Shown one piece after another: positions 3,980 to 47,638 of a stretch of 49,124 nucleotides of DNA. Below the pieces are notes generated by a model. That model searched no databases and was not told the DNA's origin. It saw only the letters and a list, made by a program, of their open reading frames with translations. Origin of the DNA: a phage. Made by a program: the position numbers and the translations under genes. How positions within the stretch are numbered: position 1 is the stretch's first letter; each line of letters starts with the position of its first letter. The stretch lies in sequence record PZ715802.1; one strand, written 5' to 3'.

Positions 3980-4141
3980 ATGCAAAACAAAGAAATCGCA
4001 AAGGTAACAATTATCGTTGAGCGTGACGGAAAGAAAACGCGATACAAGAAGCGATTTAAACAAGGCGAGGCGATGTTAGGCCGGATCGGTGATTTCATGG
4101 TGAAATTGCAAGAGGATAAGCCGGATGAAATTCAAGGTTAA
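3980..4141 (+). CDS. hypothetical protein
   Basis: internal ATG of track ORF 3932-4141 with AGGAGA RBS. Confidence 0.4.
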   Translation: MQNKEIAKVTIIVERDGKKTRYKKRFKQGEAMLGRIGDFMVKLQEDKPDEIQG

Positions 4142-4307
4142 GCTAACCATCCGTCGCATGGGTCGCAATTGCGGATCATGTAAACAAGATTTCGAATGCG
4201 AGGTTGAAGCGCTAAACAATGTTGATGCGGTTCAATGTGCTAAAGTTCTTTCAGGTGCTAACCCTGAAACACACCAATTTTCAATTAATTATGTGAGGGC
4301 TATATAA
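4125..4307 (+). CDS. hypothetical protein with Cys pairs
   Basis: ORF track; GAGGA RBS; CGSC...C...C pattern. Confidence 0.4.
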   Translation: MKFKVKLTIRRMGRNCGSCKQDFECEVEALNNVDAVQCAKVLSGANPETHQFSINYVRAI

Positions 4308-4627: not shown

Positions 4628-5152
4628 ATGGCAAAAAAAACAGATGCGCCAGCGGCTGAAAGCCTGAATTTTAAGAAACTATGGAATAAGCAATATTCAG
4701 ATCTCATTGGCACTAAACTTGATAAGCGCACAACGCTAACGCCAGAGCAGGTTATGAATTTGATTGTTCAGTATTTTGAATGGGCTGAATCAAACGCTAT
4801 AAAAGCAGGTGAAACGGCAACATTTCAGGGGCGTGTTTATCAGGATACGATTCACAAGCCGCGCATTTTTACATGGGAAGCGTTGAAGTTGTTTTGTGGT
4901 TTTTCCGGCACAGCACTAGCGAAATGGAAATTAAAGCCTGGCTATGATGTTGTAATTGAATTTGCTGAATCTGTAATTAAAGAGCAGAAATACCAGTTAG
5001 CGGCAAACGGAATGATTAACAGCACCATGATCGCAAAAGAGCTTGGCATTGATAAGGGCGACACGTTCAATATTAGCGCTAACGCTGAAACGGAAGTTAA
5101 CACGGAAGAAGCAATGAAAAACGCCGTCGCAAGCGTTCTAAGCAAAATTTAA
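4628..5152 (+). CDS. terminase small subunit (by position)
   Basis: internal ATG of track ORF 4577-5152 with GGAGGA RBS; immediately upstream of large terminase. Confidence 0.5.
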   Translation: MAKKTDAPAAESLNFKKLWNKQYSDLIGTKLDKRTTLTPEQVMNLIVQYFEWAESNAIKAGETATFQGRVYQDTIHKPRIFTWEALKLFCGFSGTALAKWKLKPGYDVVIEFAESVIKEQKYQLAANGMINSTMIAKELGIDKGDTFNISANAETEVNTEEAMKNAVASVLSKI

Positions 5153-5154
5153 AG

Positions 5155-6735
5155 GTGAATGCTATGTTGATATGGGAAGATTTAAGCAAGCTGGAAAAGC
5201 TGGCTATTAAAGAATTGAGTACGCACGATTTTGATACTTTCGTTAAAATCTGGTTCCCGATCCAGCAAGGTGAAAAATGGATTCCTAACTGGCATCACCT
5301 TTATATCGCAAGAGCGATTGATGAAATTATTGAAGGTACACGGAAAGATACGATCTTTAATGTAACTCCAGGCTCAGGTAAGACGGAATTACTTTCTATC
5401 CATTTCCCGCCGTACTCTTATTTAAAACTTAATAAGGTGCGGAACCTAAATATTTCATTTGCCGATACGCTTGTTAAACGAAACAGTAAGCGTGTGCGTG
5501 ATCTGGTTAATTCTCGAGAATGGCAAGAGCTTTTCCCTGCAAAAACTGGTACAAGCAAAGATGATGAATTTCAGGTTTTAAATGACGCTGGCAAAGTTCG
5601 CCTGGAAATGATTAGTAAATCAATGGGCGGTCAGATTACTGGTAGCCGTGGCGGTTACATTACGCCTGGCGTTTATTCAGGTTGCGTAACGCTTGACGAT
5701 CCAGAAAAGCCAGATGATATGTTTTCGAAGGTAAAACGTGAGCGCGGTCAAATGATCGCAAAGAACACCATTCGATCACGTCGCGCACATTCAGAAACGC
5801 CAATTATCGTTATCCAACAGCGTTTACATGCGCAGGATATGACATGGTTTTTAATGAATGGCGGCATGGGTATAGAGTTTGATCAGATCTCTATTCCGGC
5901 GATGGTTACAGAAGAATACGGGAAATCGCTTCCTGATTGGTTGCAGCCGCACTTTGAAAAGGATGTGCTTTCGTCTGAATACATCGTTATTGATGGCGTG
6001 AAGTATTATTCTTTCTGGCCTAGCAAGGAAAGCATTCATGATCTTAAAGCGCTACGCGATGCGGATTTGTACACGTTCCTTTCTCAGTATCAGCAAGAGC
6101 CAATTGCTCTTGGCGGTAACGCAATTAACGTTGGATGGTTCCAGTATTACGGAACCGGAGAAAAATCAACGATGCCAAAACCGGATCGCTTTGATTATAC
6201 GTTTATTACAGCAGATACCGCTCAGAAAGAAGGTGAGCTAAACGACTACAGCGTTTTATGTTATTGGGGCATGTTCAAAGGCCGTATATATTTTATTGAC
6301 GGTGTGCGCGGAAAATGGGAAGCGCCAATGTTAGAAACGCAGTTTAAAGCGTTTGTTAAACAGTGCTGGAACCGTAACAAAGAATGCGGAAACTTGCGTA
6401 AAATTTACGTGGAAGATAAAGCGAGCGGTACAGGTTTGATCCAGAATTGCCGCAAAGCATTTCCGATAGAAATTACTCCAGTGCAACGCGATAAAGACAA
6501 AGTAACGCGCTGCATGGACGCACAGCCAGTGATCAAGAATGGTTATGTTGTATTGCCGGAATCGCATCACATGCTTGCTGAATTTCTGGCAGAGGCGGCG
6601 GCATTCACTTATGATGATAGCCATCCTCATGATGATATTATGGATAACCTTTTTGATGCGGTTAATATTGAGCTTAACCTTGCTGATAATGCGGTTGATA
6701 GAATGAAGCGTTTAGCTGGATTAGCGAAGCGTTAA
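5155..6735 (+). CDS. terminase large subunit
   Basis: 526 aa; Walker A TPGSGKT; C-terminal nuclease-like region; position before portal; track start is GTG at 5155, alternative ATG at 5164. Confidence 0.85.
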   Translation: MNAMLIWEDLSKLEKLAIKELSTHDFDTFVKIWFPIQQGEKWIPNWHHLYIARAIDEIIEGTRKDTIFNVTPGSGKTELLSIHFPPYSYLKLNKVRNLNISFADTLVKRNSKRVRDLVNSREWQELFPAKTGTSKDDEFQVLNDAGKVRLEMISKSMGGQITGSRGGYITPGVYSGCVTLDDPEKPDDMFSKVKRERGQMIAKNTIRSRRAHSETPIIVIQQRLHAQDMTWFLMNGGMGIEFDQISIPAMVTEEYGKSLPDWLQPHFEKDVLSSEYIVIDGVKYYSFWPSKESIHDLKALRDADLYTFLSQYQQEPIALGGNAINVGWFQYYGTGEKSTMPKPDRFDYTFITADTAQKEGELNDYSVLCYWGMFKGRIYFIDGVRGKWEAPMLETQFKAFVKQCWNRNKECGNLRKIYVEDKASGTGLIQNCRKAFPIEITPVQRDKDKVTRCMDAQPVIKNGYVVLPESHHMLAEFLAEAAAFTYDDSHPHDDIMDNLFDAVNIELNLADNAVDRMKRLAGLAKR

Positions 6736-6749
6736 TGTGTAAAATCAAA

Positions 6750-6774
6750 GGCTGGAATATTCCGGCCTTTTTTA
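6750..6774 (+). terminator. intrinsic terminator/attenuator between terminase and portal
   Basis: stem ggctggaat/attccggcc then TTTTTT; near-identical copy at 10433. Confidence 0.45.
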
Positions 6775-6788
6775 TTATGGGGGTATTT

Positions 6789-8087
6789 ATGAGTGACAAG
6801 GTAAAGGCCATTACTAAAGAAGATGGTTACAACGAAATTTTCGGATCTAAAGATGGAACGTTTAGGCCAAATGCTTTTTACATGCAAAGTGCGGCATTTA
6901 AAACGTTATCGCAATTTTATGAAGAAGATGGAATGGCTCGGCGCATTGTCGATGTTATTCCCGAAGAAATGGTAACGCCTGGTTTTAAAGTTGACGGCTT
7001 GAAAAATGAAAAGGCTTTTAAATCGCGTTGGGATGAATTGCGATTAAACGCTAAAATTATTGATGCGCTTTCATGGTCTCGTTTATTTGGCGGTTCTGCA
7101 ATTCTTGCTGTTGTTGCTGATAACAGAATGCTTAAATCACCTGTAAAGCCTGGAGCACAACTTGAAGATATTCGCGTATATGATCGCTATCAGATCACCA
7201 TTCAGGAACGTGAAACTAATGCGCGGAGTGTTCGTTACGGTGAGCCGAAACTTTATAAGATCTCACCTGGCGGAGATATACCGGAATTCTTTGTTCATTA
7301 CTCGCGTATTTGCATCATTGATGGTGAGCGCGTATCGAATGAAAAACGCCGTCAAAATGATGGTTGGGGCGCAAGCATTTTAAACAAGCGTTTGATTGAG
7401 GCGATTGTTGATTATAACTATTGCCAGGAATTAGCAACGCAATTGCTACGCCGAAAACAACAAGCAGTATGGAAAGCGCGTGATCTGGCTTTGATGTGCG
7501 ACGATGAAGAAGGGCGCTACGCGGCGCGTTTGCGTTTGGCTCAGGTTGATGACGAAAGCGGAGTTGGTAAGGCAATTGGTATTGATGCCACAGATGAAGA
7601 ATATGAGGTTCTCAATTCTGACGTTTCCGGCGTTCCAGAGTTCTTACAGGAAAAGATTGATCGAATTGTTGCCCTAACTGGCATTCATGAAATCATCCTT
7701 AAAAATAAGAACACTGGCGGAGTTTCAGCGAGTCAAAACACGGCGCTAGAGACTTTCTATAAGTTGATTGATCGCAAGCGCGTAGAGGATTACAAGCCGA
7801 TTCTTGAATTCCTTTTGCCGTTCATGATCTCAGAATCCGAATGGTCTATTGAATTCGAACCGTTAAGCGTTCCGAGCGATAAGGACAAAGCTGAAATTAT
7901 GGCTAAGAACGTTGAATCTGTTGTAAAATTGAAAGCTGAACAGGCAATTAATCTCAAAGAAACAAGAGACACTTTGCGATCCATTTGTCCAGATCTTAAA
8001 ATCATGGACAATGACAACATTGAATTGCCAGAGCCAGAAGAAGAACAGGAACCGGAACCAGGAACGGAGGAATTAAACAATGAATGA
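6789..8087 (+). CDS. portal protein
   Basis: internal ATG of track ORF 6735-8087 placed after the terminator hairpin; GGGGG RBS; size and position after large terminase. Confidence 0.7.
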   Translation: MSDKVKAITKEDGYNEIFGSKDGTFRPNAFYMQSAAFKTLSQFYEEDGMARRIVDVIPEEMVTPGFKVDGLKNEKAFKSRWDELRLNAKIIDALSWSRLFGGSAILAVVADNRMLKSPVKPGAQLEDIRVYDRYQITIQERETNARSVRYGEPKLYKISPGGDIPEFFVHYSRICIIDGERVSNEKRRQNDGWGASILNKRLIEAIVDYNYCQELATQLLRRKQQAVWKARDLALMCDDEEGRYAARLRLAQVDDESGVGKAIGIDATDEEYEVLNSDVSGVPEFLQEKIDRIVALTGIHEIILKNKNTGGVSASQNTALETFYKLIDRKRVEDYKPILEFLLPFMISESEWSIEFEPLSVPSDKDKAEIMAKNVESVVKLKAEQAINLKETRDTLRSICPDLKIMDNDNIELPEPEEEQEPEPGTEELNNE

Positions 8088-8820
8088 TGTCTCATGGAGA
8101 TTTCCAGAGGCAACGAGGCGCGACGTTGATCGCGCCTTACAATTGCTTGTGAGGGATCTTGTTGTAAGAATGCGCCGTAACACAAAGCGCCTTAAATTTG
8201 ATGATCAGGTTAGTGAGGCGGCGGCAGATAATGAATCATACGCAGAGGAATTAATTTCCGCATTCATTGCGCTACTGCCAACTTTCGCGCTATCCATCTA
8301 TAAATTCAACTCAAAGGAATTTATCAGGATCGCAAATAAGACTGGAGGCAAGAATAATTTAGCCGTCCTGTTGCTGATTGGTCGAGGGGCTAACGCTGGT
8401 GAATCGTGGTACGCTCCTAAATATCACGTATGGCGGCAAATGGTGCGCGACTCTATCAGAAAGATGGTTGACAATATTCTTGACGATTGGGAAATGCAAG
8501 TAAGGTTAGCCGAATTGCACGAAGCGGATCAGAAAAGATTAAACGCAATTATCGAAAGGCGATTTAAGGTCTATAAAAATTGGGCGTCACGTCGCACTTC
8601 TGGTATAGTTGGCGCTTGGAATAGCGTGTTAATGTATCAGCGTTGTGTTGATGCTGGCGTTACCCATTATATTTGGCGCGGTCAGTTAGATGATCGCGAG
8701 CGTGAAAAACATTTGATGTGGGAAAAGAAACGGATCGCCTTAACATCTAATCACGTTTTTCCTGGTGAGGAATTTAATTGTCGTTGTTGGGCGCAACCGG
8801 ATTGGGAGACAGCAAAATGA
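8080..8820 (+). CDS. head morphogenesis / minor head protein
   Basis: ORF track; GGAGGA RBS; position after portal. Confidence 0.5.
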   Translation: MNDVSWRFPEATRRDVDRALQLLVRDLVVRMRRNTKRLKFDDQVSEAAADNESYAEELISAFIALLPTFALSIYKFNSKEFIRIANKTGGKNNLAVLLLIGRGANAGESWYAPKYHVWRQMVRDSIRKMVDNILDDWEMQVRLAELHEADQKRLNAIIERRFKVYKNWASRRTSGIVGAWNSVLMYQRCVDAGVTHYIWRGQLDDREREKHLMWEKKRIALTSNHVFPGEEFNCRCWAQPDWETAK

Positions 8821-9926
8821 AAAAGGTGCAACGTTTTGATAGCGTAAGAGTAAAGGCGCATTTTGATGAACATGGTTTTTTAGTTGATCGGCCTATTGTA
8901 GCGCGGATTGGTTTGCAGATTTACCAAACGCCATTTGGAGAGCGTAGAGAGTTCAGGCCAGCAAGTGAAGTATTCAAGGCTGATTCACTGGCAACCTATG
9001 CAGGAAAACCAATCACAGTAGGTCACGTCACCGTAACGCCGGAAAATGCGCGTAATGTTGTTGTTGGTACTTGTTCAGGCGCTGGCATTCCAAATGGGAT
9101 CGGAGTTGAAGCGCCTTTGAATATTTACGCAAAGGATGCAATTGAAAGCGCGAAGAAAAAACAAACGGCTGAAATCAGCGTTGGCTATACTTCAATTGAT
9201 ATTGATAAGCCAGGTTGGGGGTCTAATGAAACGGGCGAATACATCTTTGAAGAAGATCTAAAAGATGGTGAGCAGCCGCCGAAAGATTGGGTTAAGTTTG
9301 ATGCGCTACAAACAAACATTAGCGTAAACCATATCGCGCTTGTTTTTAAAGGTCGTGCCGGAATTGCAAAATTGAATCTTGATAGCGAGCAGGAATTCCC
9401 GTATGATACTGACGTTAAATTAAATAAAGAGGACGAAGTTATGACCGTTAAAATTAAACTGGATGGTGCTGTTGAATTTGACGTACCAAAAGAGGTTGCT
9501 ACCTTTATCGAAACCGTAAAGGCAGATGCTGAAAAAGCCAAAACCAAAGCCGACAGCCTGGAGGCAGAGCGTGACGCGCTACAGTCGAAAGTTGACGGCA
9601 TTCCGGCGCAGATTGAAGAAGCAGTGAAAAAAGCAAAAGCTGACGCTGATGAACATGCCGCACTGGTCGCTACCGCTTCCGAAGTTGGCGTAAAATGCGA
9701 CGGACTAACAGCAAAAGAAATTAAGATCGCATATGTGAAAGAGGTCATGGGTAATGACATTAGCGCAAAGGCTGATGCATATATTGATACCGCTTTTGAT
9801 ATCGCGAAAGAATCTGATAAAATGGCGGCTCAACGTATTGCACTGAAAGGCGATTCAGCAAAAGAAAAAGAAGATGGCGCGGATTCTGTTTTAAATCCTT
9901 CCGCACGTCTGAACAAAGCTAAATAA
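8817..9926 (+). CDS. prohead scaffold / protease-like protein
   Basis: internal ATG of track ORF 8778-9926 in ATGA overlap with upstream stop; C-terminal coiled-coil-rich AEKAKTKADSLEAERDALQSK region; position before capsid. Confidence 0.45.
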   Translation: MKKVQRFDSVRVKAHFDEHGFLVDRPIVARIGLQIYQTPFGERREFRPASEVFKADSLATYAGKPITVGHVTVTPENARNVVVGTCSGAGIPNGIGVEAPLNIYAKDAIESAKKKQTAEISVGYTSIDIDKPGWGSNETGEYIFEEDLKDGEQPPKDWVKFDALQTNISVNHIALVFKGRAGIAKLNLDSEQEFPYDTDVKLNKEDEVMTVKIKLDGAVEFDVPKEVATFIETVKADAEKAKTKADSLEAERDALQSKVDGIPAQIEEAVKKAKADADEHAALVATASEVGVKCDGLTAKEIKIAYVKEVMGNDISAKADAYIDTAFDIAKESDKMAAQRIALKGDSAKEKEDGADSVLNPSARLNKAK

Positions 9927-9938
9927 GGAGAAAATATT

Positions 9939-10427
9939 ATGGCTCAGATTTCAGCAAGTTATCATGTTGCAATGGCTCGCGCCTTGCCTGGTCAAGTTTC
10001 CGACACTTCCGCGTATAACATCGACGGAGCTTGTGTTCTTGAGAATGCAGCAGGCAATCAGAATAAGCCTGTTTTTGTTGGTGTGGCGGTCCAGCATGGC
10101 GGCGTTGATGCCATGGGCAATAAGCTGATTAAGCCGATGGAGGCAAGCGGCAAGGCTTACGGCGTTGCTATTCGATCCAACTTCCAGACCACATCTAAAG
10201 ATGGTCGCATGGTTTATGAGGCTGGTAGCGGAATTAACGTAATGACTAAAGGGCGCGTTTGGATGTTATCTGTAGAGTCGGAAGCGCCAGCATTCAAAAC
10301 AGCTATCAAACTTGATGATTCAGGACAGGTTGATTTAACGTCTGGATTAATTGAAACCACTTGGATCGCAACTGGAGACTTTACGGAATTCCAAGGTCTA
10401 AAACTCGTTGAGGTTCAACTGGTATAA
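9939..10427 (+). CDS. structural protein, paralog A of a tandem pair
   Basis: AAGGAGA RBS; shares YNIDG, NV.T.GR.W and C-terminal ..VQL with 10471-10911. Confidence 0.5.
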   Translation: MAQISASYHVAMARALPGQVSDTSAYNIDGACVLENAAGNQNKPVFVGVAVQHGGVDAMGNKLIKPMEASGKAYGVAIRSNFQTTSKDGRMVYEAGSGINVMTKGRVWMLSVESEAPAFKTAIKLDDSGQVDLTSGLIETTWIATGDFTEFQGLKLVEVQLV

Positions 10428-10432
10428 TAATA

Positions 10433-10457
10433 AGGCCGGATTATTCCGGCCTTTTAT
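10433..10457 (+). terminator. intrinsic terminator/attenuator
   Basis: stem aggccgga/tccggcct, loop ttat, then TTTTA; near-identical to hairpin at 6750. Confidence 0.5.
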
Positions 10458-10470
10458 ATATGGTGGTTTT

Positions 10471-10911
10471 ATGTCTGATTACGGTTCTATAATAGGTATA
10501 GTTGAAAATGGGTGCTTGGTAGATTCAAGCCTTTATAATATAGATGGCTCGCCAGTTATGGATGTTTCAGCCGTGATAGGTAAGGCCGTATGTGTTGATC
10601 GCATATCTTGCGGTTACAAAATAATCAGCCACAATTTTAATGAAAACTCAAAGCATTACGGAATCGTTACGCGTGATTATATGGATTTTTGCAAAGAATA
10701 TTACGACGCCGGAGATCCTGTTAACGTAATAACTCATGGTAGAATTTGGGTAATCACTCAGGACGAACAGGATATTCCATCGTATAAAGATCCTGTTTTT
10801 GTTAAAGACAATGGCTCTATATCAACAAGTGGATTTCCTACTAGTTGGTTTTTTACTGGCGAATACGTAAGATATTCACACGGATATATTTTACTATCAG
10901 TTCAGTTGTAG
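10471..10911 (+). CDS. structural protein, paralog B of a tandem pair
   Basis: internal ATG of track ORF 10408-10911 placed after the terminator; protein similarity to 9939-10427. Confidence 0.5.
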   Translation: MSDYGSIIGIVENGCLVDSSLYNIDGSPVMDVSAVIGKAVCVDRISCGYKIISHNFNENSKHYGIVTRDYMDFCKEYYDAGDPVNVITHGRIWVITQDEQDIPSYKDPVFVKDNGSISTSGFPTSWFFTGEYVRYSHGYILLSVQL

Positions 10912-11000
10912 CGTGCTAACACAAAAAACACTTGAACGTTTAACAAAAAATGCTATATTAAAGCCGTTATTGTGACGGCTTTTCTATGAGGGGAAATATT

Positions 11001-11978
11001 ATGTCTAAAGAAAAAATTAAATTTGATGAATTTGAAGCGTCTGTGATTTCTAATCACCTGCAACTGCAAGGCGCTAAAAACGATGCGTCTGATATGGGTA
11101 TTTGGACGGCTCAAGAGCTACACAAAATTAAGTCTCAGGCTTATGAGAAAGAATATCCGGCAGGTTCCGCACTGCGTGTATTCCCTGTAACGTCAGAGCT
11201 TTCCGATACTGATAAAACTTTTGAATACCAGACTTTCGACAAAGTAGGTCACGCAAAAATCATCGCTGATTATACTGATGATCTGCCAACTGTTGACGCG
11301 ATGATGACTTCTGAATTTGGTAAAGTGTTCCGCCTGGGTAATGCGTTCCTGATTTCCATTGACGAAATCAAAGCAGGTCAACGCACTGGCAAGAGCCTTT
11401 CCGCTCGCAAGGCAAACGCCGCACAGAATGCGCATGATCAGCTTGTCAATCACCTGGTTTTCAAAGGCTCTAAGCCGCACAAAATTATCAGTGTGTTTGA
11501 ACATCCGAACATCACAACTATCACCTCCGCAGGTTGGAACAACGCCGCAGGTACTGGTAAAAAGCCGGAAACAGCACAGGATGAATTAGAGCAAGCGATT
11601 GAAAAAATCGAAACGCTGACCAACGGGCAGCACCGCGCTACTCACATTCTGATCCCGCCGTCAATGCGTAAGGTTTTGAGCGTTCGTATGCCGGAAACCA
11701 CCATGAGCTATCTTGATTACTTCAAGCAGCAGAATGGAGGTATCACTATCGAATCCATTTCCGAGCTTGAAGATATCGACGGCGCAGGGACTAAAGCGGC
11801 GCTGGTTTACGAAAAAGATCCGATGAACATGAGCATTGAGATTCCAGAAGCGTTTAACATGCTGACCGCGCAACCTAAAGACCTGCATTTCAAAGTGCCT
11901 TGCACCTCTAAATGTACTGGCCTGACGATTTACCGTCCGTTGACGCTGGTTCTGATTAAAGGTCTTGTAGTAGGCTGA
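11001..11978 (+). CDS. major capsid protein (by position and size)
   Basis: internal ATG of track ORF 10986-11978 with GAGGGG RBS; about 325 aa; strong terminator immediately downstream. Confidence 0.6.
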   Translation: MSKEKIKFDEFEASVISNHLQLQGAKNDASDMGIWTAQELHKIKSQAYEKEYPAGSALRVFPVTSELSDTDKTFEYQTFDKVGHAKIIADYTDDLPTVDAMMTSEFGKVFRLGNAFLISIDEIKAGQRTGKSLSARKANAAQNAHDQLVNHLVFKGSKPHKIISVFEHPNITTITSAGWNNAAGTGKKPETAQDELEQAIEKIETLTNGQHRATHILIPPSMRKVLSVRMPETTMSYLDYFKQQNGGITIESISELEDIDGAGTKAALVYEKDPMNMSIEIPEAFNMLTAQPKDLHFKVPCTSKCTGLTIYRPLTLVLIKGLVVG

Positions 11979-11994
11979 TAATTCAATTAATATA

Positions 11995-12021
11995 GGGAAC
12001 CGTTAAAAGGTTCCCTTTTTT
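11995..12021 (+). terminator. intrinsic terminator
   Basis: stem gggaacc/ggttccc then TTTTTT. Confidence 0.65.
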
Positions 12022-12039
12022 ATATATGGAGAAAAACAA

Positions 12040-12312
12040 ATGGCTAAAGAAAAAGAAATTACACTGGTTAACACTGGCGTTGCACTGATTATTATTGATC
12101 GCATTGACGTTATGCCAGGTAAGGAAATTACCGTTGCGGAAAGCGTGTTAGAGCGGCAAGGCACTAAAGCACTTATGGCAGAAGGTAAGCTAACAATCAA
12201 AGATAACAGCGATCTCAATGCTGAAATCGTTGAAGCGTTTAAGAGCAAGCGCAAAAAAGATCCGAACGAAGGCAAGACAAAAAAAGAGCTTGAGGACGGC
12301 GGCGAGTATTAA
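12040..12312 (+). CDS. hypothetical head-associated protein
   Basis: ORF track; GGAG RBS; flanked by terminators. Confidence 0.45.
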   Translation: MAKEKEITLVNTGVALIIIDRIDVMPGKEITVAESVLERQGTKALMAEGKLTIKDNSDLNAEIVEAFKSKRKKDPNEGKTKKELEDGGEY

Positions 12313-12319
12313 TTAATAA

Positions 12320-12344
12320 AGGCGCTTATTTAGCGCCTTTTTTA
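12320..12344 (+). terminator. intrinsic terminator
   Basis: stem aggcgct/agcgcct then TTTTTT. Confidence 0.65.
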
Positions 12345-12357
12345 TTGGGGGTAAATC

Positions 12358-12762
12358 ATGAATGATATTGAGATCTTAGAGCAGATTTATAAACTTGCTC
12401 CAGCATTTAAAAAAGTAGATCCTGAATTGATTCAGGCATGGATCGAATTAGCAAAAGATTTCGTTTGCGTTAACCACTTCAAAGACAAGTACAATCGCGC
12501 TGTTGCTCTTTATACGTTGCACCTGATGACTCTTGACGGCGCAATGAAACAGGAAGGTGAAAGCGTAGAAAGCTACTCGCATCGTATAGCGTCATTTTCC
12601 CTGACTGGTGAGTTTTCTCAGACATTCAGCAAAGTTAGTGACGACACAAGCGGTAACACGTTGCGCCAAACGCCGTGGGGTAAAATGTATGAAGTTCTTA
12701 ACAAGAAAAAAGGCGGCGGATTTGGCCTTACAACTGCCTTTCGTCGGAGGTGCTCACGATGA
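12358..12762 (+). CDS. head-tail connector (gp6-like) protein
   Basis: ORF track; position; ALYTLHLM-type motif recalled from head-tail connector families. Confidence 0.45.
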
Positions 12763-14622: not shown

Positions 14623-14628
14623 TATTAA

Positions 14629-14651
14629 GGGGCGCATTGCGTCCCTTTTTT
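14629..14651 (+). terminator. intrinsic terminator
   Basis: stem ggggcgc/gcgtccc (one G-U) then TTTTTT. Confidence 0.6.
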
Positions 14652-15014: not shown

Positions 15015-15331
15015 AACGGGCGGTTTATCTGTATTATCAGAAACCGCCGACAGATGCAGAATTGCAAGCCGTAGGATTAACCCGCGCAGACTATGAAGGA
15101 GAAGATCCGCCAGAGGTCATATTTGATGAAAGTATGATGCAATCATGGGATATATTTTGCGCGATGGGTACACAGTGGCGTAGTGCTGGCGCTGGTGCTT
15201 ACGGTTTTGATTATAATGTTTTGCCTATGTTATTCAGAATCTATAAAATAGACGATGAAGAAATGGCCTTAAATGACTTGCGCATCATGGAACAAAAAGC
15301 ACTGGAAATGATGCAAGCAAATAACAAATAA
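14700..15331 (+). CDS. tail assembly chaperone, GT-like product via -1 frameshift at 15005-15011
   Basis: slippery heptamer A_AAA_AAC just before the stop; -1 frame is open from 15011 through track ORF 15062-15331. Confidence 0.55.
15005..15048 (+). other. programmed -1 ribosomal frameshift signal
   Basis: heptamer A_AAA_AAC 15005-15011, 7-nt spacer, perfect 8-bp stem ggcggttt/aaaccgcc at 15019-15048. Confidence 0.6.
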
Positions 15332-15353
15332 AGCGCCTACGGGCGCTTTTTTT
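15332..15353 (+). terminator. intrinsic terminator
   Basis: stem agcgcc/ggcgct, loop tacg, then TTTTTTT. Confidence 0.6.
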
Positions 15354-15368
15354 ATGAGGGTAAAATAT

Positions 15369-18625: not shown

Positions 18626-18630
18626 ATCAA

Positions 18631-18653
18631 AGCCGCCTTGTGCGGCTTTTTTA
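18631..18653 (+). terminator. intrinsic terminator
   Basis: stem agccgc/gcggct then TTTTTT. Confidence 0.6.
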
Positions 18654-46822: not shown

Positions 46823-46865
46823 TAGCACTTTTTGTTAAAACTCGATTGGGGTAGTTTGGCATAAT
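46823..46865 (+). promoter_or_regulatory. composite box element: TAGCActtttTGTTA, 22 nt, CATAAT
   Basis: palindrome 46823-46837; spacer hairpin ggggta/tacccc. Confidence 0.6.
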
Positions 46866-46897
46866 TACCCCATCGAAACGAAACGAGGAAAACACAA

Positions 46898-47563: not shown

Positions 47564-47606
47564 TAGCACGAATTGCTAAAACAGAATCCTGGGGTTGCGG
47601 TATAGT
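47564..47606 (+). promoter_or_regulatory. composite box element: TAGCAcgaatTGCTA, 22 nt, TATAGT
   Basis: palindrome 47564-47578; spacer hairpin ggggtt/aacccc. Confidence 0.6.
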
Positions 47607-47638
47607 AACCCCACACCAAACGAAAGAAGGAAATCAAA

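What the first reader, a model, noticed from the sequence alone, without database searches (positions are those of the whole stretch)
6750..10473. Duplicated terminator-plus-initiation module before the portal gene and before the second paralog
Sequence 6749-6791 (aggctggaatattccggcctttttt attatgggggtattt ATG AGT GAC) and 10433-10473 (aggccggattattccggcctttta tatatggtggtttt ATG TCT GAT) are near-identical hairpin-T-run-RBS-Met-Ser-Asp modules. Similar compact terminator-RBS units follow most late genes (12021, 12344, 15353, 18653). This points to attenuation-based dosage control in the late operon and to reuse of an intergenic cassette.
Basis: seen in the sequence. Interest (0 to 1): 0.45.

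Follow-up and report, generated by a model that had tools for sequence, protein, structure and literature searches.

The report
Two look-alike terminators in a T1-like phage
The two near-identical hairpin, T-run and ribosome-site units are real, but they are the already catalogued predicted terminators T30 and T34 of TLS-type phages, each at a site where all relatives carry a hairpin, so they are ordinary late-operon punctuation, not a duplicated cassette.

Summary
The window is a Tlsvirus genome (Drexlerviridae, T1-like), 97.6% identical to Citrobacter phage Supreme284.

**Observation: confirmed.**
- Hairpin 6747-6770 lies between terL and the portal gene. Hairpin 10432-10453 lies between two paralogous cement/decoration genes.
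- They match at 22 of 24 bases in the core and at 48 of 59 aligned columns through the ribosome site and ATG.
- They are the most similar pair among 18 terminator modules in the window (score 34, next 23).

**What they are.**
- Both are listed as predicted rho-independent terminators T30 and T34 in the TLS reannotation paper. Both sites are annotated as terminators in the T1 and Stevie records.
- In about 40 distinct relatives a hairpin plus T-tail sits at both junctions (82% and 94% of distinct sequences, against 2.6% of coding windows). Stems change through compensatory substitutions.
- The terL-portal stem is conserved widely. The second hairpin differs by genus and resembles the first only in Tlsvirus and one related lineage.
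- Met-Ser-Asp is inherited separately by each gene and uses different Ser codons.

**Conclusion.** "Cassette reuse" is weakly supported: about 0.1-0.2 such pairs are expected per genome by chance. Leaky termination and 3'-end stabilisation for dosage control is plausible but untested here. Novelty is low.

The parts
5155..6735 (+). Terminase large subunit gene (terL). Its TAA stop is at 6733-6735.
   Evidence: Pfam Terminase_6C. 99% identical to Stevie/TLS TerL. Annotated in relatives.
6740..6745 (+). -10-like hexamer TAAAAT, 4 nt upstream of the first G of the hairpin. Possible promoter element; this is an inference.
   Evidence: A TAnAAT-type hexamer ends 0-4 nt before the stem's first G/C in 32 of 32 distinct Drexlerviridae terL-portal junctions, even where the hairpin sequence class differs. 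The KP36 record annotates a promoter plus stem_loop here.
6747..6770 (+). Hairpin 1, equal to TLS terminator T30. It has a 10-bp stem with one U.G pair and the loop ATAT. The T-run 6768-6773 has 6 T.
   Evidence: Listed as T30 in TLS Supplementary Table S1. Annotated as a terminator in Stevie and T1. Covariation.
6779..6791 (+). Shine-Dalgarno GGGGG (6779-6783), 5-nt spacer, and portal start codon ATG (6789-6791).
   Evidence: The Stevie annotation places the RBS and start at the same spots. TLS has 5 T and the window 6 T in the T-run, which breaks the frame from the upstream ATG at 6735, so the hairpin is non-coding.
6789..8087 (+). Portal protein gene.
   Evidence: Pfam Phage_portal_3, E = 1e-69.
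9939..10427 (+). First cement/decoration protein gene (TLS htjA homologue).
   Evidence: Pfam Phage_cement. Paralogous to the next gene.
10420..10428 (+). TGGTATAAT, a perfect extended -10 motif that overlaps the stop codon of the first paralog. Its function is not shown.
   Evidence: Conserved within Tlsvirus. Similar hexamers occur in only 27 of 58 distinct sequences at this junction in the family.
10432..10453 (+). Hairpin 2, equal to TLS terminator T34. It has a 9-bp stem and the loop TTAT. The T-run 10452-10455 has 4 T and is followed by ATATAT.
   Evidence: Listed as T34 in TLS Table S1. The syntenic site is annotated as a terminator in Stevie and T1. Covariation.
10462..10473 (+). Shine-Dalgarno GGTGG (10462-10466), 4-nt spacer, and ATG of the second paralog.
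   Evidence: Stevie RBS annotation.
10471..10911 (+). Second cement/decoration paralog gene (TLS hdeC homologue).
   Evidence: Pfam XM1_gp53_minor_capsid / Phage_cement. 32% identical to the first paralog.
10932..10982 (+). Conserved promoter-like site: TTGAAC, 16-nt spacer, TGcTATATT (10932-10959). It is followed at once by hairpin AAAGCCGT/ACGGCTTT (10960-10982, TLS T35), then the Shine-Dalgarno site and the major capsid start at 11001.
   Evidence: The block is conserved across TLS, Vc1, egaa, tunus, K50, ISF002 and T1. T35 is listed in TLS Table S1.
11994..12016 (+). Terminator hairpin after the major capsid gene (TLS T36A).
12318..12340 (+). Terminator hairpin after the DUF7444 gene (TLS T36B).
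14627..14647 (+). Terminator hairpin after the major tail gene (TLS T42).
15330..15349 (+). Terminator hairpin before the tape-measure gene (TLS T44).
18629..18649 (+). Terminator hairpin after the gene that follows the tape measure (TLS T46).

Best explanation
Hairpins 6747-6770 and 10432-10453 are two separate Rho-independent terminators. Each has been conserved at its own position in the late operon of a TLS-type, T1-like phage. Each sits 17-18 nt upstream of the start codon of the next gene.

Shown here:
- Each has a GC-rich stem, a 4-nt loop and a T-run on the transcribed strand, placed just after a stop codon.
- A hairpin with a T-tail is kept at both junctions throughout Drexlerviridae, while the stem sequence changes through paired substitutions.

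Inferred:
- Host RNA polymerase transcribing terS-terL, or portal to first cement gene, releases part of its transcripts at the T-run.
- The retained 3' hairpin protects those upstream messages from 3' exonucleases.
- The fraction that reads through, perhaps with transcripts from nearby promoter elements, expresses the next block.
- This divides the late region into expression units of different dosage.

The two hairpins look alike because they meet the same constraints: AAGGC...GCCTT stem ends, an AT tetraloop, a U-run, an AU spacer, a GG-rich ribosome site and an ATG. On top of this there is a lineage-specific coincidence, or an old short conversion, in the four inner stem pairs. They are not copies of an inserted cassette.

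The confidence of 0.6 is for the whole statement. That these are conserved terminator-type hairpins already catalogued as T30 and T34 is about 0.9. That they act as leaky terminators setting dosage is about 0.5.
For: - Anatomy and stability.
- Identity with published predictions: T30 and T34 in TLS Supplementary Table S1. Terminators are annotated at the same junctions in Stevie and T1.
- Position is conserved: a hairpin plus T-tail scoring at least 20 occurs in 82% of 50 distinct terL-portal junctions and 94% of 68 distinct junctions after the cement gene, against 2.6% of 680 coding windows.
- Compensatory change: 7 of 9 pairs (second hairpin) and 5 of 10 pairs (first hairpin) show changes on both sides. 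No shuffle out of 500 reached the observed covariation score, and pairing collapses when the partner is slid.
- Orthology rather than duplication: the GGCTGG/CCrGCC stem is at terL-portal in TLS, Vc1, egaa, tunus, K50 and others. The second site carries GGCGCTC, GGCACTC, GGCTCC, GGGGACTATCC and other stems in other genera.
- Phages with a single cement gene (Rtp, KP36) also have a hairpin after it.
- The general layout (T-run, AT, GGAG, ATG) is shared by most late junctions.
- Precedent for leaky terminators setting dosage: phiX174. The T1 'transcripton' model is cited.
Against: - There are no transcript-end or read-through data for any Drexlerviridae phage, so termination, its efficiency and any dosage effect are inferred.
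- A simple attenuation cascade fits poorly. The major capsid gene lies downstream of three hairpins, and it appears to have its own conserved promoter.
- In Webervirus the terL-portal hairpin has almost no T-tail (1-2 T in 8), so at least there the hairpin must do something other than terminate.
- A -10-like hexamer directly abuts the terL-portal hairpin in 32 of 32 lineages, which hints at a promoter-linked role.
- Within-genome similarity of the two modules is clearly highest in Tlsvirus (32-34, against 10-23 in the 35 other distinct genome types). A past copying event cannot be excluded.
Confidence: 0.6

Rival explanations
1. Terminator overlapped by a promoter, acting as an insulating junction in the sense of the T1 transcripton model. 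The hairpin stops transcripts coming from upstream. A -10 element placed directly before the stem starts new transcripts inside or at the foot of the 5' arm. Those transcripts either lack a complete terminator hairpin or carry it as a stabilising 5'-terminal stem-loop.
For: - A TAnAAT hexamer ends 0-4 nt before the first G/C of the terL-portal stem in 32 of 32 distinct sequences, across at least five unrelated stem classes. The figure is 4 of 28 at the junction after the DUF7444 gene.
- The KP36 record annotates a promoter (TTGAAA, 17 nt, CATAAT) abutting a stem_loop at this junction.
- The capsid-gene junction has a conserved site (-35, spacer, TGn-extended -10) followed at once by a hairpin.
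- The second module is preceded by a perfect TGGTATAAT.
- The TLS paper summarises the T1 late region as modules flanked by terminators that contain promoters.
Against: - No convincing -35 lies upstream of 6740-6745 in the window (TGGATT, 3 of 6). The promoter scan did not call either site, and promoter-like sites are not enriched overall.
- AT-rich stop-codon contexts produce -10-like hexamers easily. At the second junction only 27 of 58 distinct sequences have one.
- The TLS authors, using stricter criteria, accepted only three sigma-70 promoters and could not confirm transcriptons.
- For module 2 the predicted start (about 10434-10435) would keep the whole GC core plus the U-run, so the new transcripts would still meet the terminator.
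Confidence: 0.25
2. Copied module. In the Tlsvirus ancestor the terL-portal hairpin and its downstream leader were copied, by short-patch gene conversion or illegitimate recombination, over the pre-existing terminator between the two cement genes. This would be the 'reuse' that the first reader proposed.
For: - The pair scores 34 against a next-best 23 within the window.
- Within-genome scores for the two junctions are 32-34 in Tlsvirus and 10-23 in the 35 other distinct genome types.
- Only 0.18% of 3,890 comparisons between non-orthologous family hairpins reach the score of this pair.
Against: - The longest exact shared run is 14 nt, and differences are spread through stem, loop, T-run, ribosome site and spacers.
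- Contig L035, which is not Tlsvirus, has the same GGCCGGA/TCCGGCC stem at the second site with a different loop (GAAA) and tail. The stem therefore predates Tlsvirus and was not homogenised together with the loop.
- With about 55 pairs of late hairpins per genome, the family-based rate gives about 0.1-0.2 such pairs by chance.
- Comparable similarity (score up to 22) occurs between other non-orthologous junction classes.
- The identical 24-mer also occurs once in an unrelated viral contig.
- The Met-Ser-Asp part is not copied: the Ser codons differ and each N-terminus is conserved in its own orthologues.
Confidence: 0.2
3. The hairpins are mainly RNA processing or stability elements rather than terminators. 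An AU-rich single-stranded stretch (UAAAAUCAAA, UAUAAUAAUAA) next to a stable stem would be an RNase E entry site. Cleavage there would leave the upstream message with or without a protective 3' stem and the downstream message with a 5' stem-loop. This would set different half-lives for neighbouring cistrons.
For: - The hairpin is conserved even where the T-tail is nearly absent (Webervirus terL-portal junction, 1-2 T in 8).
- AU-rich segments always precede the stems.
- Hairpins follow genes for abundant virion proteins: cement protein, major capsid and major tail.
Against: - In Tempevirinae and Tunavirinae the T-tail is consistently kept (4-7 T in 8). It is oriented with transcription, which a pure stability element does not need.
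- There are no processing data.
Confidence: 0.1

Closest known systems
Predicted rho-independent terminators T30 and T34 of Escherichia phage TLS (Supplementary Table S1 of PMC11447400), and the terminators annotated at the same junctions in Citrobacter phage Stevie (NC_027350) and phage T1 (NC_005833)
   Same: - T30 (ggctggaatattccggcc + T-run) and T34 (ggccggattattccggcc + ttttatatat) are the very sequences of the finding, at the same two junctions.
- Stevie annotates terminator plus RBS at both sites.
- T1 annotates terminators after terL and between genes 49 and 48.
   Different: - The window has 6 T in the first T-run, where TLS has 5.
- None of these records or papers comments on the resemblance between the two, and none has experimental support.
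- The T1 hairpins at these sites have different sequences.
T1 'transcripton' model of the late region (Roberts et al. 2004, as summarised in PMC11447400)
   Same: A series of co-directional late gene blocks bounded by intrinsic terminators. T1-like phages typically carry 18-21 of them.
   Different: The model also requires a promoter inside each block. The TLS authors could not confirm that for TLS. Here only the capsid-gene junction shows a well-conserved full promoter-like site.
Leaky Rho-independent terminators TJ, TF, TG and TH of phiX174
   Same: Terminators placed after structural genes that let part of the polymerase read through, giving nested mRNAs and graded dosage. This is what the modules would work like.
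   Different: The phage, genome type and sequences are unrelated, and efficiencies have been measured only for phiX174. This is a functional analogy, not membership.

Membership tests
Rho-independent (intrinsic) transcription terminator | GC-rich stem-loop (about 5-14 bp, loop 3-8 nt) on the transcribed strand | tested here: met
   10 bp with loop ATAT (-14.2 kcal/mol) and 9 bp with loop TTAT (-16.2 kcal/mol).
Rho-independent (intrinsic) transcription terminator | U-rich tract immediately 3' of the stem | tested here: met
   TTTTTT at 6768-6773. TTTT at 10452-10455 followed by ATATAT, which is a weaker tract.
Rho-independent (intrinsic) transcription terminator | Intergenic position downstream of a stop codon, co-oriented with the flanking genes | tested here: met
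   Hairpin 1 begins 12 nt after the terL stop and hairpin 2 begins 5 nt after the stop of the first cement gene. All flanking genes are on the + strand. A T-run length difference between TLS and the window rules out coding through hairpin 1.
Rho-independent (intrinsic) transcription terminator | Structure kept in orthologous positions through compensatory changes | tested here: met
   Caveat: the hairpins were picked by a hairpin finder, so the percentage paired is partly circular. The control on coding windows (2.6%) and the slide controls address this.
Rho-independent (intrinsic) transcription terminator | Transcript 3' ends map to the U-tract, and RNA polymerase is released in vitro or in vivo | not testable with these tools
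   No Term-seq or RNA-end data for Drexlerviridae were found.
Duplicated or mobile intergenic cassette (REP/MITE-like repeated element) | Presence/absence polymorphism: relatives that lack the element at the site | tested here: not met
   Both junctions carry a hairpin in nearly all relatives.
Duplicated or mobile intergenic cassette (REP/MITE-like repeated element) | Copies at several sites or in several genomic contexts | tested here: not met
   There are only two sites in the window within 3 mismatches. In IMG/VR the 24-mer occurs only at these two junctions of TLS-like contigs, plus one unrelated contig.
Duplicated or mobile intergenic cassette (REP/MITE-like repeated element) | Sequence identity that extends beyond what function requires | tested here: inconclusive
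   48 of 59 columns are identical, and the pair is an outlier in the window and across genomes. However, the longest exact run is 14 nt and the family-based chance rate is about 0.1-0.2 per genome.
T1-type transcripton (promoter, genes, terminator) | A promoter within each terminator-bounded block | tested here: inconclusive
   A conserved -10-like hexamer precedes hairpin 1 in 32 of 32 lineages, and a conserved full promoter-like site precedes the capsid gene. No promoter was called at either module by the scan.

The most novel reading that the evidence does not exclude
The terL-portal junction of all Drexlerviridae may be a composite element. A -10 promoter hexamer is fused to the foot of a hairpin, so the same 40 nt would end incoming transcripts and launch new ones that begin inside the stem. 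The new transcripts would escape termination or gain a protective 5' stem-loop. Under this reading, Tlsvirus acquired a second copy of this layout (TGGTATAAT plus a near-identical hairpin) between its two cement-protein genes.
Probability: 0.2. Interest if true: 0.45.

Novelty: already known. Interest (0 to 1): 0.15.

Why it matters
It matters little beyond careful annotation.
- It confirms that the late region of TLS-type phages is punctuated by conserved intrinsic terminators packed tightly against the next ribosome site. This is useful for anyone engineering these phages or harvesting compact terminator and RBS parts.
- Long ORF calls that run through the hairpins (for example the 6735 and 10408 starts) are wrong.
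- The side observation of a universally conserved -10 hexamer fused to the terL-portal hairpin gives a concrete target for the first transcript-end mapping of a T1-like phage.

Tried and rejected
- **Rfam scan of the whole window:** no family reached its gathering score.
- **Mobile or repeated cassette:** rejected. The 24-mer has only two sites in the window. In IMG/VR it is confined to the two syntenic junctions of TLS-like contigs plus one unrelated 5.4-kb contig. That contig's context matches nothing in the phage or plasmid collections.
- **Hairpin copied during duplication of the cement-protein gene:** rejected. The look-alike partner lies before the portal gene, not before the first paralog. 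Single-copy phages (Rtp, KP36) already have a hairpin after the cement gene.
- **Coding explanation** (extended ORFs starting at ATG 6735 or TTG 10408, as in the F61 annotation): rejected because the T-run length differs between TLS and the window.
- **Met-Ser-Asp as part of a copied unit:** rejected.
- **Literature searches for transcript-end or RNA-seq data on T1-like phages:** nothing usable. The T1 genome paper itself is not held.
- **MAFFT alignments of the short hairpins:** rows with other stem or loop lengths were put out of register. The pair counts therefore understate pairing.

Full report
**What the window is.** Positions 5000-12500 are 97.6% identical to Citrobacter phage vB_CfrD_Supreme284 and about 92-94% identical to phages Stevie and TLS. 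The window is therefore a Tlsvirus genome (Drexlerviridae, Tempevirinae), a T1-like siphophage. From homology and Pfam, the genes around the finding are:

| Gene | Coordinates |
|---|---|
| terL | 5155-6735 |
| portal | 6789-8087 |
| head morphogenesis | 8080-8820 |
| protease/scaffold | 8817-9926 |
| cement/decoration paralog 1 | 9939-10427 |
| cement/decoration paralog 2 | 10471-10911 |
| major capsid | 11001-11978 |

The two paralogs are 32% identical (E = 5e-19). Both match Pfam Phage_cement / XM1_gp53.

- Module 1 is AAAGGCTGGA-ATAT-TCCGGCCTTT (6747-6770). It has a T-run to 6773, GGGGG at 6779-6783 and ATG at 6789.
- Module 2 is AAGGCCGGA-TTAT-TCCGGCCTT (10432-10453). It has a T-run to 10455, GGTGG at 10462-10466 and ATG at 10471.
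- The 24-nt cores differ at two positions. Nothing else in the window comes within three mismatches.
- The stems fold at -14.2 and -16.2 kcal/mol.
- A local alignment gives 48 identities in 59 columns. Among 153 pairs of 18 terminator modules in the window this pair scores 34 and the next best 23.

**They are already on record.**
- The TLS reannotation paper lists exactly these sequences as predicted rho-independent terminators T30 and T34. It also lists T35, T36A, T36B, T42, T44, T46, T49 and T50, which correspond to the other late hairpins here.
- The Stevie record annotates terminator plus RBS at both junctions.
- The T1 record annotates terminators after terL and between its two paralogs, genes 49 and 48.
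- 18-21 such terminators are typical of T1-like phages.

**Comparative evidence for function.** I collected the region from 12 annotated relatives and 80 IMG/VR loci found with a portal alignment. I located the junctions with tblastn.
- A hairpin with a T-tail (score at least 20) is present after terL in 82% of 50 distinct sequences.
- It is present after the first cement gene in 94% of 68 distinct sequences, against 2.6% of 680 coding windows.
- The stems vary by paired substitutions. At the second site the classes include GGCGCTC/GAGCGCC, GGCACTC/GAGTGCC, GCCACTC/GAGTGGC, GGCTCC/GGAGCC, GGCCGGA/TCCGGCC and GGGGACTATCC/GGATAGTCC.
- On alignments of these hairpins, 7 of 9 and 5 of 10 pairs show changes on both sides. 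The covariation score exceeds all 500 shuffles, and pairing collapses when the partner is slid.
- The hairpins were chosen by a hairpin finder, so the percentage paired is partly circular. The coding-window control and the diversity of stems carry the argument.

Both elements are therefore under selection as structures, with a T-tail kept in Tempevirinae and Tunavirinae.

**Duplication or not.**
- The terL-portal stem GGCTGG/CCrGCC is orthologous across TLS, Vc1, egaa, tunus, K50 and many metagenomic contigs.
- The T1 group has a related GGCTGTC/GACGGCC stem with the U.G pair at the same place.
- The second hairpin differs by genus and resembles the first only in Tlsvirus.
- One contig outside Tlsvirus (L035) has the same GGCCGGA/TCCGGCC stem at the second site, but with loop GAAA and a different tail. 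The stem is therefore older than Tlsvirus and was not homogenised together with the loop and leader.
- Within-genome similarity of the two modules is 32-34 in Tlsvirus and 10-23 in the 35 other distinct genome types. So there is a real excess.
- The background of about 15-20 shows how much of the resemblance is just the family-wide layout of T-run, AT, GG-rich ribosome site and ATG.
- Using family hairpins from non-orthologous junctions as a null, 0.18% of 3,890 comparisons reach the score of this pair. Other junction classes reach even higher scores.
- With about 55 pairs of late hairpins per genome, that gives about 0.1-0.2 such pairs by chance.
- The identical 24-mer also turns up once in an unrelated viral contig.
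- The Met-Ser-Asp starts use unrelated Ser codons. MSDK is conserved in portal orthologues and MSDYG in second-paralog orthologues.

I conclude that no cassette was inserted or reused. An old short conversion of the stem cannot be excluded (about 0.2).

**Mechanism.**
- Shown: the anatomy of intrinsic terminators, the intergenic co-oriented position, and conserved structure.
- Inferred: partial termination plus 3'-end protection that divides the late region into dosage units. phiX174 does this with its poor terminators TJ, TF and TG.
- A plain attenuation cascade from one upstream promoter does not fit well, because the major capsid gene lies behind three hairpins.
- That gene is preceded by a strongly conserved promoter-like block, TTGAAC-16 nt-TGcTATATT at 10932-10959, followed at once by a hairpin.
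- A TAnAAT hexamer abuts the terL-portal hairpin in 32 of 32 distinct sequences, even where the stem class is unrelated. In Webervirus that hairpin almost lacks a T-tail.
- KP36 annotators marked a promoter plus stem-loop at that junction.

An overlapped terminator-promoter junction is therefore a serious rival (about 0.25). The window has no good -35 there, and the promoter scan called nothing. No transcript-end data exist for this family.

**Verdict.** Novelty is low, because the elements are already catalogued.

Noticed in passing
window 1084, 2456, 26137, 31831, 34289, 35674, 46822, 47563, 49075 (+ strand); 31228, 38872, 41036, 41716, 43129, 43867, 44686, 45196 (- strand): The 21-nt repeat AAATAGCACnnnTTGnTAAAA is reported for TLS as DR1-18 with its function left open. 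In all 16 copies examined it is followed by a -10-like hexamer 19 nt (twice 18 nt) after the repeat end, often with TG at the extended -10 position. This looks like the upstream element of a phage promoter class. Its TTGnTA sits 5 nt too far from the -10 to act as a normal -35.
   Followed up: partly
window, the 42 nt downstream of each repeat listed above (e.g. 46841-46882, 47582-47623, 1103-1144): Each of these putative promoters carries its own inverted repeat that brackets or abuts the -10 hexamer, for example GGGGTA...TACCCC, AAGGCCA...TGGCCTT and GATGCGTG...CACGCATC. The mean inverted-repeat score is 11.8, against 6.9 +/- 0.5 in shuffles (0 of 300 reach it). The stems differ between copies, which points to a nucleic-acid structure rather than a protein-binding site.
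   Followed up: partly
window 10932-10982: The junction between the second cement gene and the major capsid gene holds a promoter-like block (-35 TTGAAC, 16-nt spacer, TGcTATATT). It is conserved from TLS to T1. Its spacer is the 21-nt repeat in reverse orientation (TLS 'DR7'). It is followed directly by a hairpin (TLS T35). The TLS paper did not list a promoter here.
   Followed up: partly
window 6740-6745 and the equivalent site in loci L003-L106: A TAnAAT hexamer ends 0-4 nt before the terL-portal hairpin in 32 of 32 distinct Drexlerviridae sequences, including lineages whose hairpin sequence is unrelated. In several genera the 21-nt repeat overlaps the terL stop codon, 5 nt upstream of that hexamer.
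   Followed up: partly
window 8080-8820: The head-morphogenesis gene is mosaic. It is 99-100% identical (protein) to Stevie and contig L033, but only about 47% identical to TLS, Sazh, LL5 and others whose neighbouring genes are 94-99% identical. The cement genes show similar module swaps (contig L033: 65% and 39%).
   Followed up: no
window 6735-6788, 10408-10470, 10986-11000 and 15354-15368: Mechanical ORF calls start upstream of the likely true starts (portal 6789, second paralog 10471, major capsid 11001, tape measure 15369). Two of them read through terminator hairpins. The public F61 record uses the long portal and terL calls.
   Followed up: partly
public records seen: Records labelled Streptococcus phage MBBL140 (92.8% identical over 7.5 kb), Campylobacter phage C4 and others, and Vibrio phage Vc1 are T1/TLS-like enterobacterial-type genomes. 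The host labels look doubtful or reflect contamination.
   Followed up: no
L016 (IMGVR_UViG_3300012973_000695), reverse strand about 4120-4143: An unrelated 5.4-kb viral contig carries the identical 24-mer AAGGCCGGATTATTCCGGCCTTTT after a small membrane-protein-like ORF. Its context matches nothing in the phage or plasmid collections.
   Followed up: partly
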